A stretch of 64,000 bases of DNA from Scenedesmus sp. PABB004. Its lineage: Eukaryota. The notes beneath the pieces are model-generated. The model was given only the letters and a program-made list of their open reading frames with translations. It had not been told where the DNA came from and did no database searches. The position numbers and the translations under genes were made by a program. The DNA is taken from the NCBI GenBank assembly GCA_014905635.1, contig CM026547.1:4092001-4156000 (forward strand). Direction: 5' to 3'. Below, one piece after another: positions 10,801 through 64,000 of this stretch. Every line of letters begins with the position of its first letter. Position 1 is the stretch's first letter.

Positions 10801-13800
10801 GCCGCACGTGCGCACGACGTCGGCGCCCCAAAAGTGCTCCGTCGCGGGGTAGCACAGCCGCGGGTGGTTGCACACCTGCCGCGGCGGGCGGGCGGCCGCG
10901 GCGGCGGGGGTGGGTGCGTGCGTTGCGGGGCGGCGCGGCGCGGCCCGCCCCTGCCCTCACCCAGACCCGCCCGCGCCCGCCGCCTCCCCGCCCGCCGACC
11001 CACCCACCCGCCCGCCCAGCCCCACAAAGCCCTGCACCTGCCCCCCGCCCTCGCCCGCACCTTGCGCAGCTCCATGACCTTGTTCTGCAGCGGCTCCCAC
11101 GCGCGGTTGCCGTGCGCGGCGCGGCGGTACGCGGGATCGACGCGTATGGAGTTGGTGCCCTTAATCCAGTTGTAGACCGCGGTCTGGTACGCGCTCATGG
11201 GGCACTTGACCGTCAGCGTGATCTTCTCGGGCAGCTGCTGCTCCACGTCCTTGACCTGCGCACGCGCGTGCGTGGGCGGGCGGGCGGGTGTGTTGGGCGG
11301 GCGAGCGTGTGGGCGAGTGAGCGTGGCGCAGCGGTGACTGGGACGGCAGCGCCGCGGCGCGCCGCGCCGGCGGCGGCGGCCGCGGGTGTCCCGGGCGCCG
11401 CACCATGCGGCGGAGCATGAAGGGCGAGAGGATCTGGTGGAGGCGGTTGACCACGAGCACCTTCTTCTCCCGGTCCAGCGCCGCCGCCTCGCCGCCGGGG
11501 CCGCCGCCGGGCGGGGGCTCGCCGAAGGAGTCGACGCCGAGGAACTTGGTGAACCACTCGCTGAAGGTGCTGCTGTCGTTGAAGACCTGAGGGGGCGCGC
11601 GGGCGCGGCGCGGCGACGGCGCGTGCGTGTCAATTTCAGTGTGCGTGGGGGGTGAGTTTGGGGTTGAATTGGTGTGTGCGCGTGGGTGGAGTGGGAGGGC
11701 GGCCGCGCAGGCGCGGCGCAGGCGCACGTCTGGGAGCAGCAGGTTGAGCAGGGACCAGAGCTCCTTGAGCTCGTTCTGCAGCGGCGTGCCCGTGAGCAGC
11801 AGGCGGCGCGCGGTCGTGAACTTGTTGAGGTCCTGGCTCAGCTTGGACTCCCTGCGCGGCGCAGCGCGGCGCGGCGCGAGCCAGGGCGGTGAGCGCGCGC
11901 GCCGCCACCCCGCCGCCGCCCGCCACTGTGCCTGCGCCCTGCCTGCGCCCTGCCCCCGCCCTGCCTGCGGCCTGCCTGCGCCCTGCCTGCGCCCTGCCTG
12001 CGCTCACGCCAGCCCTAACCCGTTACCCTAAAACCCTAACCCTGCCCGCACCTGTCCTTCATGCGCTGGGCCTCGTCGATGATGATGTACTTCCACTCCA
12101 GCTTGGAGAGCTTGGTGCGGTCGCGCATGATCGTCTCGTACGTGGTGACCAGGATGTTGAACTGCATGCTCTGAACCTCCTGCGCGCGTGCCGGCGAGGG
12201 GCGCCAGGGCGGGCGCGCGGCGGGAGAGGCGGCGGCAGGGACAGAGAGGCGCGCGGGCGGGGCGGGGCGCGGCCGGGCAGGGTTGGAGGGCGGCGGAGTG
12301 GCAGGGCGGCGGCGGGTGCGCATGCGGCGGCGGGCGCGGCGCGGCGGGTGCGGATGCGCACGTTTTGGAACTTGGCGGCGCGCTCGTCCTTGCTGCCGGT
12401 GTAGTAGACGCAGCGGAAGTCGGGCAGCCAGGTCTGCAGCTCGGCCTTCCAGTTGACGATGACGGCGTTGGGCACGATGATGAGGTGGGGGCCGTAGTTC
12501 TGCTTGAACTCGTACAGGTACGCCAGCAGCGCCATCACCTGACAGAGGTGGTGCCGGGGGCCGCGCGCGGGCGTGGCGTGTGGGTGCGTGTGGCTCAGGT
12601 CGTCTGAACCCTAAAAACCCGGCACCGCGACCACATGCCGCCGCCGCCGCTGCGTGCGCGCGCCTGCACGGTCTTGCCGAGGCCCATCTCGTCGGCGAGG
12701 ATGCCGTTGAGCTTGTTGTTGTAGAGCGACACCATCCACTCCAGGCCGACCATCTGGTACTCGCGCAGCTTGCCCGCCTTGGGCGGCTTGAGGTACGCCG
12801 GCGCGCGCGTGACCTTCTCGCGGATGTTGTGCGCGAGCTGCGTGAACCTGGGGAGGGAGAGAGGGGGGAGTGGGACGGGCGTGGTGTTGACAGGGCGTTG
12901 ACCGGGCGCGGGGCGGGTTGTGGGCGGGCGGGCGGGTGGGCGGGGCTAGAGCCCTAGGGCGGCGGGGAGGGAGCCCCCCAGCCCCGCCCGGCGCAGCGCA
13001 GCCCAGCGAACCGCGCACACCTGCTCTGCGCGTCGCCGCCGAGCGTGTGCACCTGCGTGAGCAGCTCGTTCGCGGCCATGTGCTCCTGCTGCGCCGCCGC
13101 GGCTCTGACTTTGACCTCCTCCTCGCTCAGCTCCATCAGCCGCGCCTGGCGCGACGCGGCGCGGGCGGCGGCGGGCGGCGGGGCGGGGCGGGCGCGGGCT
13201 GAGACGTGCGCAGCAGAGACAGCGCCGCGCCGGGGCGCGCCGGGAGCAGAGGGCGACGCGTGGTGCGCTGTGCTGTGCGCGCGGCGCTGTGCGCGCGCAC
13301 CTCTGCGATGGCCTCCTGCACCGCCTCGCCCGCCGCCTCCTCGGCCTTGTACTGGACCAGCTTCTTGGTGAGCTTGTTGATGTACTCCTCGGTCTCCTGC
13401 AGGAAGCGCTCCACCTCTGCGCAGCGCAGCAAACACAGCACGCAGCACAGCACACACAGCACACGCAGCGCCGGCGCGGTGGGCGGGGCGGGCGCCCGCG
13501 GGCGGCGGCGCGCCCGCGCGGTGCACACGGCGCACGGCACAGCGCGCCGCGCGGGCGCGCTGCGCGGCGCGCACCCGCGAAGCGCTCGTCGTCGCTGCTG
13601 GGGCCGTAGGTCGCGCGCAGGAGCTCCTTGTAGGCCTCAAAGTCGTTGGCCTTGAGCGCCTCGAGGCGGCGGTCGTTGTCGTCCATGCGCTGGCGGTTGA
13701 GCTCGCGCGCGAGGCGCTCGTGCAGGCGCGCGAGCTGCTTGTTGCGCGTGAGGTGCATGTCGCGGTGCATGATGAAGCGGTCCTGCGGTGATGGACGAAT

Positions 13801-63106: not shown

Positions 63107-64000
63107 ATGGGCAAGAAGGGCGCGGGCGAGGAGTCGGCCAAGAAGGACAAGAAGGCCAAGCAGTCGGTCGGCGATGTCCAGGCGCGCCCCCCGCGGCTGC
63201 CGGCCCCGCTCGCGGGCCGCCCGCGGGCGCCCCGTGGCCAGGCGGCCGGCGCGACGGCGCCGCGCCCGCGGCGCCGGCCGGGCGGGGGCGGCACGGGCGG
63301 CGCGGCCGCGCGGCGGCGGCAGCAGCGCAGCCGCCGGACGCCGCGCGCCGCGCCCACCCCCGCGGCTCGCCGCGCGCGCAGGCGGTCACCGACTTCCTGA
63401 TCAAGCCGGACAAGTCGGCGCCAGGTGCGGCGGCGGCGTCGATCGGGCGGCGGCGGCGCTGCCCGGATCGCGCGCGGCGCTGCCGCGGCGGCAGCGATCG
63501 CGCGCCGGCGCCGCGCCGGCGCCCACGCGCCGCCCTGCCGCGCCCCGCGTCGCCGCAGCGCTCGACACGTCCAAGTGGCCGCTGCTGCTGAAGAACTACG
63601 ACAAGCTCAACGTGCGCACGGGGCACTACACGCCCATCCCCGCGGGCCACACGCCGCTGCGGCGGCCGCTCAAGGACTACCTGAGCTACGGCTGCATCAA
63701 CCTCGACAAGCCCGCCAACCCGAGCAGCCACGAGGTCGTCGCGTGGATCCGGCGCATGCTGCGCGTCGAGAAGACGGGGCACAGCGGCACGCTCGACCCC
63801 AAGGTCACCGGCAACCTCATCGTATGCGTCGACCGCGCGACGCGGCTCGTCAAGGCGCAGCAGAGCGCGGGCAAGGAGTACGTCTGCATCGCGCGGTGAG
63901 CGAGCCGGCCGCGGGGGACGGCGCACGCGGCGGCGGCGCGCGCGGCCGCGACCGCGCCGGCGCAGGCGGCGGCGAGGCGCGAGCGCGCGTGCTCACACGC
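63107..64000 (+). CDS. CBF5: H/ACA RNP pseudouridine synthase (dyskerin/CBF5), 5' part
   Basis: [65 protein letters not shown]. Continues past the window end. Confidence 0.98.

What the first reader, a model, noticed from the sequence alone, without database searches (positions are those of the whole stretch)
12539..63381. Exceptionally frequent GC-AG introns with an AG|GCGCG donor class
Seen: about 13 of about 100 hand-traced introns restore conserved or protein-like sequence only if the donor is GC. They are 12663(-) SNF2 GKTVQ|VMAL; 19659 and 20335 AAA; 24798 kinase; 35084, 35613, 36072, 36523, 37023, 37882 PhoD; 42747(-) AAC FQQ|VVA; 54162(-) BBS1 LDIK|ILPR; and 63182 CBF5. Twelve read AG|GCGCG and one reads G|GCGAGT. 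The dominant GT donor is GTGCG (+4 C), acceptors are GCGCAG/CCGCAG, and polypyrimidine tracts are largely absent. Known: GC-AG introns are typically around 1% and usually have near-perfect U1 complementarity at +3..+6, which GCGCGC lacks. Inference: donor recognition (U1 5' end, U1-C, U5 loop 1 or the U6 ACAGA box) may be altered or relaxed in this extreme-GC genome, relying on the exonic AG. GT-only gene finders would mis-annotate these genes.
Basis: partly seen in the sequence, partly recalled or inferred. Interest (0 to 1): 0.8.

Follow-up and report, generated by a model that had tools for sequence, protein, structure and literature searches.

The report
Frequent GC-AG introns in GC-rich alga
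In this 78% G+C green-algal DNA, roughly one intron in ten begins with GC instead of the usual GT, most simply because composition pressure turns T into C at donor sites that are otherwise perfect, and gene finders that allow only GT would mis-build these genes.

Summary
All 13 sites read as written: 12 are AG|GCGCG and one is G|GCGAGT.

How well each GC donor holds up:
- **Ten firmly supported.** The spliced product lines up residue for residue with orthologues or solved structures: PhoD 35084, 35613, 36072, 36523, 37882; RavA-like AAA 19659, 20335; BBS1 54162; ADP/ATP carrier 42747; SNF2 12663.
- **One required by frame.** At kinase 24798 no in-frame GT-AG intron exists.
- **One only probable.** 37023.
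- **One undecided.** CBF5 63182 has two in-frame GT donors just upstream.

No RNA of this organism could be examined.

The window probably holds about 100-190 introns, so GC-AG is roughly 6-13%. That is far above the usual ~1% (P≤1e-3 even in the least favourable case).

GC donors equal the local GT consensus (AG|GTGCG) apart from +2. They carry exonic AG more often than GT donors (11 of 12 against 10 of 22, p=0.011), and all have -1G and +5G, the known compensation rule for GC donors. A 53% G+C relative has GT at the intron position matching 19659.

Best reading: ordinary U2-type GC-AG introns enriched by G+C pressure, as already predicted for pelagophyte algae (14-17%). An altered spliceosome is neither needed nor tested. 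This is a new member of a known kind.

The parts
12539..12663 (-). GC-AG intron (125 nt, cag|GCGCGC...CAG) in an SNF2-family helicase gene, between GKTVQ and VMALL
   Evidence: Pfam SNF2-rel_dom positions 1-34 and 33-98 abut. Against yeast Snf2 (6iy2_O) exon A ends at residue 132 and exon B starts at 133. Coordinates.
19659..19829 (+). GC-AG intron (171 nt, phase 0, cag|GCGCGG) in a RavA/MoxR-like AAA ATPase gene
   Evidence: Chosen with 13 of 13 homologues, including Tetradesmus obliquus, Monoraphidium minutum and transcript-derived proteins. The same intron position (residue 243, phase 0) carries a GT donor in metagenome locus L001. The GT-only alternative deletes the conserved VAQ.
20335..20462 (+). 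GC-AG intron (128 nt, aag|GCGCGC) in the same AAA ATPase gene
   Evidence: Chosen with 11 of 11 homologues that span it. The GT-only alternative (donor 20392) adds 19 residues and loses 29 score units.
24798..24916 (+). GC-AG intron (119 nt, phase 2, cag|GCGCGG) in a GAF-kinase gene, between HGDLSPYNVLL and FVAKLADFG
   Evidence: 0 of 12 in-frame, stop-free GY-AG combinations use GT, and read-through shifts the frame. Pfam kinase hits flank it. No orthologue was tested.
35084..35197 (+). GC-AG intron (114 nt, phase 2, gag|GCGCGT) in a PhoD_2 phosphatase gene
   Evidence: Colinear with M. minutum P0153 and with the Tetradesmus deserticola transcript ORF P0001. The GT alternative 35088-35204 is one residue short and uses a GAG acceptor, seen in 0 of 34 verified acceptors.
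35613..35729 (+). GC-AG intron (117 nt, phase 0, cag|GCGCGC) in the PhoD_2 gene
   Evidence: Chosen with 10 of 12 distant homologues. Colinear with P0153, P0001, P0003, P0008, P0009 and P0011. The GT-only alternatives read further into the intron and add non-matching residues: 12 with the same acceptor (35649-35729), 7 with a GAG acceptor (35649-35744).
36072..36414 (+). GC-AG intron (343 nt, phase 0, cag|GCGCGC) in the PhoD_2 gene
   Evidence: Chosen with 12 of 12 homologues. SAVFQ|GLFAVARRFYLLFQ is identical in P0153. The GT alternative deletes the conserved VFQ.
36523..36702 (+). GC-AG intron (180 nt, phase 0, cag|GCGCGC) in the PhoD_2 gene
   Evidence: Colinear with P0153. Beats GT-only by 29 units. 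Chosen by only 4 of 12 distant homologues.
37023..37185 (+). Probable GC-AG intron (163 nt, phase 1, agg|GCGAGT) in front of a 17-codon exon of the PhoD_2 gene
   Evidence: Chosen with P0153, but the local score gain is only 2 units. The GT alternative 37027-37318 skips the small exon and uses a GAG acceptor.
37882..37986 (+). GC-AG intron (105 nt, phase 0, cag|GCGCGC) in the PhoD_2 gene
   Evidence: KFMLQ|VISSAIGNEPPP is colinear with P0153. Without it a 35-residue insert appears. Retention would stay in frame.
42598..42747 (-). GC-AG intron (150 nt, phase 0, cag|GCGCGC) in the ADP/ATP carrier gene
   Evidence: [30 protein letters not shown] has the same length as the matching stretch of PDB 6gci. 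The intron contains no GT.
54011..54162 (-). GC-AG intron (152 nt, phase 0, aag|GCGCGC) in the BBS1 gene
   Evidence: GGLDIK|ILPRTANL is colinear with T. obliquus BBS1 P0155. The GT-only alternative adds 25 residues and loses 35 units.
63182..63381 (+). Candidate GC-AG intron (200 nt, cag|GCGCGC) after the start-codon exon of CBF5/dyskerin. Undecided.
   Evidence: It is in frame and fits the motif. But GT donors at 63167 and 63176 are also in frame with the same acceptor. The N-terminus is not conserved and no orthologue was obtained (one search failed).

Best explanation
These are ordinary U2-type GC-AG introns, removed by a standard major spliceosome. They have become about ten times more common than usual because the genome is under extreme pressure towards G+C.

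Proposed mechanism:
- The T at donor position +2 is one of the few T's left in introns and is repeatedly replaced by C.
- The change persists only where every other donor position matches the species consensus (AG|G-GCG). There, pairing of the exonic AG with U5 loop 1 and U1, and of +5G with U1 and U6, makes up for the +2 mismatch.

Shown: the junctions, the motif, the excess of exonic AG, and one orthologous GT in a lower-G+C relative.

Inferred: that the spliceosome is unaltered, and that mutation bias or biased gene conversion is the driver.
For: 1. Junctions. 11 of 13 sites need the GC donor, by colinearity with orthologues or structures (10 sites) or by frame (1 site). One more site is probable.
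2. Relatives' transcripts. Transcript-derived proteins join the same exons: T. deserticola TSA ORF P0001 at 35084 and 35613, and MMETSP P0170 at 19659 and 20335.
3. Motif. GC and GT donors share one consensus apart from +2. Among GC donors, 12 of 12 have -1G, +1G, +3G and +5G, and 11 of 12 have +4C. The full AG|GYGCG motif is present in 11 of 12 GC donors against 8 of 22 GT donors (p=0.003). This is the compensation pattern described for human GC donors (PMC11732430).
4. Composition. Verified introns are 6.2% T and 47% C.
5. Orthologous position. At residue 243, phase 0, of the AAA gene, locus L001 (53% G+C) has cag|GTGTGG. Its donors and those of L037 (59% G+C) look conventional (GTATG, GTAAGT, GTGAGT), whereas the window has GTGCG.
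6. Precedent. About 14-17% predicted GC-AG in Aureococcus (69.9% G+C) and about 14% in Pelagomonas, against 0.32% in Aureoumbra (39.4% G+C) (bioRxiv 10.1101/2024.10.30.620910, passages). Genome G+C correlates with splice-site G+C across kingdoms (PMC7072748, passages).
Against: - No RNA from this organism was seen, so every junction is inferred from protein colinearity or frame.
- Orthologues are at most about 84% identical.
- The ascertainment started from a reader who may have been looking for the motif. Only the 9 junctions in PhoD, AAA and BBS1 were re-found blind to the motif.
- A decoy test with dinucleotides alone discriminates poorly. GT+GC scored best with 12 of 12 homologues, but GT+CG came close, for example 731 against 724. 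With equal penalties the aligner also calls spurious GC donors, such as 37243 beside the real GT at 37237.
- The denominator is an extrapolation.
- Only one orthologous GT/GC pair was found.
- The state of U1, U5 and U6 is unknown.
- Six of the 12 sit in one gene, which composition alone does not explain.
Confidence: 0.75

Rival explanations
1. The spliceosome of this lineage has changed so that C at +2 is nearly neutral. Examples would be a U1 5' end that pairs with C at +2, or altered U1-C, U5 loop 1, U6 ACAGA or U6 methylation. GC donors would then be frequent because discrimination is relaxed, not only because mutation supplies them.
For: The donor consensus GTGCGC pairs poorly with a canonical U1 and U6 at +4 and +6 in both classes. 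The frequency is about 6-13%. Lower-G+C relatives have conventional donors, so the signal has moved in this lineage.
Against: GT still outnumbers GC by about 7-15 to 1, although C is 7.6 times more common than T in introns. So +2 is still strongly selected. GC donors need the full consensus more often than GT donors (p=0.003), which implies that +2C still carries a cost. Pelagophytes show similar frequencies, attributed there to G+C content. No snRNA could be inspected.
Confidence: 0.12
2. Several of the sites are not GC-AG introns. The real donors would be nearby GT sites giving slightly different proteins, or the in-frame, stop-free segments would be kept as low-complexity coding inserts.
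For: - CBF5 63182 has two in-frame GT donors.
- 37023 gains only 2 units over read-through.
- 35084 and 37023 each have a GT 4 nt downstream.
- 5 of the 12 GC introns would stay in frame and stop-free if retained.
- In-frame GT alternatives exist at 12663, 19659, 35613, 36072 and 20335.
Against: Each alternative deletes conserved residues, adds 12-35 residues absent from all orthologues, or needs a GAG acceptor, seen in 0 of 34 verified acceptors. At 42747 the intron has no GT. At 24798 no in-frame GT-AG combination exists. An intron lies at the 19659 position in L001. The exact heptamer recurs at 11 junctions defined independently.
Confidence: 0.08
3. The C at +2 is not what the spliceosome sees, because of assembly or polishing errors (T read as C) or C-to-U editing of the pre-mRNA.
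For: None from the calls. It cannot be excluded, because no reads could be laid.
Against: It would take twelve independent, identical T-to-C errors confined to donor +2 at sites with a full consensus. Nuclear pre-mRNA C-to-U editing at splice donors is not an established process in green algae (my own knowledge, not from a call).
Confidence: 0.03

Closest known systems
GC-AG introns of the major (U2-type) spliceosome, about 1% of introns in plants and animals
   Same: GC...AG boundaries. Ordinary length: median 139 nt against 131 nt for GT introns. Same acceptor and same C-rich tract as the GT introns. -1G and +5G are invariant, and there is a stronger overall consensus than in GT donors (rule from PMC11732430; about 1.2% in plants, PMC6310983).
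   Different: The frequency is about 6-13% in this window. The consensus they match is the local GYGCGC, not GYAAGT. The one exception (GCGAGT at 37023) is closer to the universal consensus.
High GC-AG share predicted in GC-rich pelagophyte algae (Aureococcus 14-17%, Pelagomonas about 14%; bioRxiv 10.1101/2024.10.30.620910)
   Same: A very G+C-rich algal genome with short introns and a GC-AG share of about a tenth or more. The share is low in a low-G+C relative. Here, likewise, a GT sits at the orthologous site of a 53% G+C relative.
   Different: The lineage differs: a chlorophycean green alga, whose best matches are Tetradesmus and Monoraphidium, against stramenopiles. The G+C content is higher (78% in the window). 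The pelagophyte figures are gene-model predictions. Mine rest on orthologue colinearity in a single window.
[quoted passage not shown]
   Same: The GC donors are AG//G-type sites with +5G, where U5 and U6 contacts can act together to offset +2C.
   Different: That framework was built on genomes that prefer A at +4. Here +4 is C in 30 of 34 donors, so the U6 contribution is unclear.

Membership tests
U2-type GC-AG introns | The intron starts with GC and ends with AG at the exact exon-exon junction | tested here: met
   Junctions were fixed by residue-for-residue colinearity at 10 sites and by frame at 1. One is probable (37023) and one undecided (63182).
U2-type GC-AG introns | Removal from this organism's own mRNA at that junction | not testable with these tools
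   No RNA run was listed. Only transcript-derived proteins of relatives support the joins (P0001, P0170).
U2-type GC-AG introns | A stronger donor consensus than in GT introns, with -1G and +5G | tested here: met
   -1G and +5G in 12 of 12. Exonic AG in 11 of 12 against 10 of 22 (p=0.011). Full motif in 11 of 12 against 8 of 22 (p=0.003).
U2-type GC-AG introns | Same acceptor and tract as the GT introns of the same genome | tested here: met
   34 of 34 acceptors end in CAG. Positions -25..-5 are 54% C (GC class) and 59% C (GT class). Lengths do not differ (Mann-Whitney p=0.33).
U12-type (minor) introns | A rigid donor of the RTATCCTT type and a matching branch-site box (motif recalled, not from a call) | tested here: not met
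   All 12 donors read GCG[CA]G and none has ATCC. No minor snRNA lies in the window.
G+C-driven GC-AG enrichment (pelagophyte type) | Very high genomic G+C with a GC-AG share of about 10% or more | tested here: inconclusive
   The window is 76-82% G+C. The share is estimated at 6-13% from one window with an extrapolated denominator. No genome-wide count was possible.
G+C-driven GC-AG enrichment (pelagophyte type) | Lower-G+C relatives carry GT at orthologous intron positions | tested here: met
   One case: L001 (53% G+C) has cag|GTGTGG at the position of 19659. The position of 20335 has no intron in L001 or L037.
Lineage with an altered 5' splice-site recognition apparatus | Changed U1 5' end, U5 loop 1 or U6 ACAGA box | not testable with these tools
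   No Rfam family reached threshold in the window, and no genome is held.

The most novel reading that the evidence does not exclude
In this extremely G+C-rich chlorophycean lineage, recognition of the 5' splice site itself has shifted. Examples are a U1 5' end that tolerates or pairs with C at +2, or greater reliance on U5 loop 1 with a weakened U6 ACAGA check. GC and GT donors would then be close to interchangeable at AG|G-GCG sites, and the GC share would still be rising.
Probability: 0.1. Interest if true: 0.75.

Novelty: new member of a known kind. Interest (0 to 1): 0.4.

Why it matters
Practical. Gene models for very G+C-rich green algae built with GT-only splice rules will carry small deletions, junk insertions or skipped exons in a sizeable share of genes. 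In the four genes checked here against orthologues or structures, 10 of about 32 introns are affected. One published annotation of a relative contains almost no non-GT introns. Gene finders for such genomes should allow GC donors of the form AG|GCGCG.

Conceptual. This is a second, independent algal lineage in which the GC-AG share tracks genome composition. It is a natural series for asking how far base-composition pressure can erode a near-universal splicing signal before the machinery has to change. For a specialist it is an expected extreme, not a surprise.

Tried and rejected
- **Whole genome:** none is held for this window.
- **RNA runs:** no RNA holder was listed for window 34000-43999.
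- **Pfam on long references:** I sent stop-free ORFs instead.
- **Rfam:** the gathering scan of the window found no snRNA or any other family.
- **Decoy donors:** the test with dinucleotides GG, CG and CC had too little power to discriminate. GC and CG occur 887 and 775 times in 4.1 kb. GT+GC won with 12 of 12 homologues but by small margins.
- **G+C step at motif sites:** only weakly discriminating. 26% of AGGCGCG sites pass, against 9-33% of control motifs.
- **Third homologue search:** aimed at CBF5, but I gave a reference one base out of frame (63560 instead of 63561).
- **Metagenome loci:** among the 39 loci aligned of the 80 fetched, those most similar to the query were mostly intron-poor. 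Only L001 and L037 (both among the 39) had comparable gene structures.
- **Literature:** six searches found no report of a high GC-AG share in green algae. This holds for the library searched only. bioRxiv supplements were not open.
- **A wrong number:** one search printed a binomial tail for 17 of 34. The correct figure, for 16 of 34, is 0.067.
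Full report
**What the window is.** The 64 kb are 76-82% G+C throughout. They are densely packed with short-intron eukaryotic genes.
- Pfam on 387 stop-free ORFs of at least 100 residues maps these genes: an SNF2 helicase (about 9500-12945, minus strand); a RavA/MoxR-like AAA ATPase (18258-21180, plus); a GAF-kinase (21670-25700, plus); two RRM regions; a PhoD_2 phosphatase (about 33200-38730, plus); a Nudix gene; an ADP/ATP carrier (42400-43900, minus); DCP1; BBS1 (53200-56000, minus); a RING gene; and the start of CBF5.
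- The best protein matches are chlorophycean green algae of the order Sphaeropleales. Tetradesmus obliquus is 99% identical over one AAA exon and 82% over the whole protein. Monoraphidium minutum and a Tetradesmus deserticola transcript also match.
- Members of that order with more than 70% G+C are on record (PMC12571836, passages).
- No whole genome is held. No RNA run was listed. No snRNA gene lies in the window.

**Is the observation in the sequence?** Yes. All 13 positions read as stated: twelve AG|GCGCG and one agg|GCGAGT. AGGCGCG occurs 88 times on both strands. An exon end defined independently would therefore hit it by chance with probability below 0.001.

**Method.** I wrote a local protein-to-genome aligner. 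It uses BLOSUM62 and affine gaps, allows introns in all three phases, requires AG as acceptor, lets me choose the donor dinucleotides, and charges the same penalty of 15 for every donor type. It knows nothing of the longer motif. Orthologues came from one exhaustive profile-free search, a cluster look-up and two word-indexed searches.

**PhoD_2 gene.**
- With the 915-residue M. minutum protein P0153 the aligner returns 16 introns in the conserved part. None of these junctions has a gap.
- With GT only, each of the six shows damage: a one-residue gap with a GAG acceptor at 35084; 7-12 extra non-matching residues at 35613, depending on the acceptor; loss of the conserved VFQ at 36072; gaps at 36523; a skipped 17-codon exon at 37023; and a 35-residue insert at 37882.
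- In local tests the GC solution wins by 13, 17, 28, 29, 2 and 18 units. So 37023 is only probable.
- Twelve more distant homologues pick 36072 in 12 of 12, 35084 and 35613 in 10 of 12 each, and 36523 and 37882 in 4 of 12 each.
- The T. deserticola protein P0001 is a TransDecoder ORF of a transcriptome assembly. It joins the exons at 35084 and 35613 in the same way. After a retained intron it also joins them across 36072, in a shifted frame.
- With equal penalties the aligner also produces false GC calls in poorly conserved stretches. An example is 37243, next to the canonical GT at 37237. Dinucleotide freedom alone is therefore not evidence, and the decoy test confirms this.

**AAA gene.** Seven introns, two of them GC (19659 and 20335).
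- All 13 homologues tested choose 19659, and all 11 that reach it choose 20335.
- The flanking residues (RRTVAQ|VTNAQ and NRPDDCHK|VR.QVLEII) are nearly identical in T. obliquus.
- GT-only costs 26 and 29 units.

**BBS1.** Six solid introns, one of them GC (54162). It is colinear with T. obliquus P0155. GT-only adds 25 residues and costs 35 units.

**ADP/ATP carrier.** The junction ...[30 protein letters not shown]... has the same length as the matching stretch of PDB 6gci. The 150-nt intron contains no GT at all.

**SNF2.** Exon A ends at yeast Snf2 residue 132 and exon B starts at 133. The in-frame GT 6 nt upstream would remove the VQ of GKTVQ.

**Kinase.** None of the 12 in-frame, stop-free GY-AG combinations between HGDLSPYNVLL and FVAKLADFG uses GT. 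Read-through shifts the frame.

**CBF5.** The GC donor fits. However, GT donors at 63167 and 63176 are also in frame with the same acceptor. My orthologue search was sent in the wrong frame and wasted. This site is undecided.

**Tally.** Ten sites are firmly supported, one is required by frame, one is probable and one is open.

**How frequent?**
- In the four genes checked against orthologues or structures, 10 of about 32 introns are GC-AG. Those genes were chosen because they contain such introns.
- Scaling counts of donor-like and acceptor-like motifs from the verified 10.6 kb to the whole window gives a factor of 3.9-5.9, or roughly 125-190 introns.
- Twelve of 100-190 is about 6-12%. A few further AG|GCGCG sites with an exon-to-intron rise in G+C lie in genes without homologues and could raise the figure.
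- Under a 1-2% rate, P(>=12) lies between 5e-10 and 1.2e-3 for 100-210 introns. The excess is real for this window. The genome-wide value is unknown.

**Anatomy of the signals (34 verified introns, 22 GT and 12 GC).**
- GT donors: -1G in 21 of 22, +3G in 21, +4C in 19, +5G in 21, +6C in 16, and -2A in 11.
- GC donors: -2A in 11 of 12, -1G in 12, +3G in 12, +4C in 11, +5G in 12.
- Exonic AG: 11 of 12 GC donors against 10 of 22 GT donors (p=0.011). Full AG|GYGCG: 11 of 12 against 8 of 22 (p=0.003).
- Acceptors: CAG in 34 of 34, GCAG in 26, followed by G in 27.
- Positions -25..-5 are 57% C, 6% T and 34% G. The tract is made of C rather than U, not absent.
- Introns overall are 6.2% T and 47% C.
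- Lengths do not differ between the classes (medians 139 and 131 nt, p=0.33).

**Mechanism.**
- The GC donors are the local consensus with T replaced by C at +2. They occur almost only where the rest of the site is perfect. Invariant -1G and +5G is the pattern described for human GC donors, where combined U5 loop 1 and U6 contacts are thought to offset +2C (PMC11732430, passages).
- T is the rarest base in these introns, yet GT still outnumbers GC several-fold. So +2 remains under selection and is not free.
- In the AAA gene, locus L001 (53% G+C) shares intron positions 95, 155 and 243 with the window. At 243 it has cag|GTGTGG where the window has cag|GCGCGG. L001 and L037 (59% G+C) have conventional donors such as GTATG, GTAAGT and GTGAGT.
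- The whole donor signal has therefore drifted with composition, and +2 is its last and leakiest position.
- Pelagophytes give the same picture: 14-17% and about 14% at 63-70% G+C, against 0.32% at 39%. A correlation across kingdoms is also published.
- I therefore read this as ordinary GC-AG splicing enriched by G+C pressure (confidence 0.75). A changed U1, U5 or U6 is possible (0.12) but not required, and could not be tested here.

**Comparison and novelty.**
- The kind is known. The lineage (a chlorophycean alga) and the local motif are new as far as six searches of the held library show.
- Large surveys could not have seen it in this order. The M. neglectum annotation they used holds 19 non-GT introns among 67,746.
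- The finding matters mostly for annotation, and as a second natural example of composition eroding a splice signal.

Noticed in passing
window 36340-36420 (+): Inside intron 36072-36414, the last roughly 25 bases of the intron and the first roughly 15 of the next exon are duplicated in tandem. This gives a second CGCAG|GGCCTGTTTGC acceptor about 50 nt upstream of the used one. Its copy soon runs into TGA (read).
   Followed up: no
window 18940-19395 (+): The largest verified intron (456 nt) is only 64% G+C, because it holds a long (AC)n / (GC)n microsatellite around 19290-19385.
   Followed up: no
34 verified introns, window-wide: 16 of 34 intron lengths are multiples of three (10 of 22 GT, 6 of 12 GC). 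15 of those 16 would read through in frame without a stop. Against an expected one third, the binomial tail is 0.067, so this is only suggestive.
   Followed up: partly
34 verified introns, window-wide: The sense strand of introns is strongly skewed: C 47%, G 38%, A 9%, T 6%. The stretch in front of acceptors is a C-tract (57% C). Every acceptor is CAG, and 27 of 34 are followed by G.
   Followed up: partly
window 34700-38500 (+): Six of the 12-13 GC-AG introns lie in the PhoD_2 gene (6 of its 16 conserved-part introns). Whether this reflects low expression, local composition or chance was not tested.
   Followed up: no
window 35084-35093 and 37023-37032 (+): Two GC donors have a GT exactly 4 nt downstream (GCGC|GTGCGC and GCGA|GTGCAC), in another frame. 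U1 could bind in either register.
   Followed up: no
window (-)58797, (+)58731, (+)42168, (-)62324, (-)23445, (+)17373: These are further AG|GCGCG sites with a rise of 0.17 or more in G+C from the upstream to the downstream 60 nt. They lie in regions without usable homologues. Some may be additional GC-AG introns, and (-)62324 lies upstream of the RING domain. A seventh such site, (-)34947, is the antisense of a PhoD acceptor.
   Followed up: no
protein P0001 against window 35875-36012: The Tetradesmus deserticola transcript ORF reads into the intron that matches 35875-36012, then continues through the next exons in a shifted frame. It looks like an intron-retaining transcript in a public transcriptome.
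   Followed up: partly
window 62073-63110: The RING-finger gene (minus strand, domain at 62073-62186) and CBF5 (plus strand, ATG at 63107) are head to head, with under 1 kb between them.
   Followed up: no
window 13139-13636 (-): A weak Pfam match to photosystem I subunit PsaF (E=0.003, below the curated cut-off), just upstream of the SNF2 gene.
   Followed up: no
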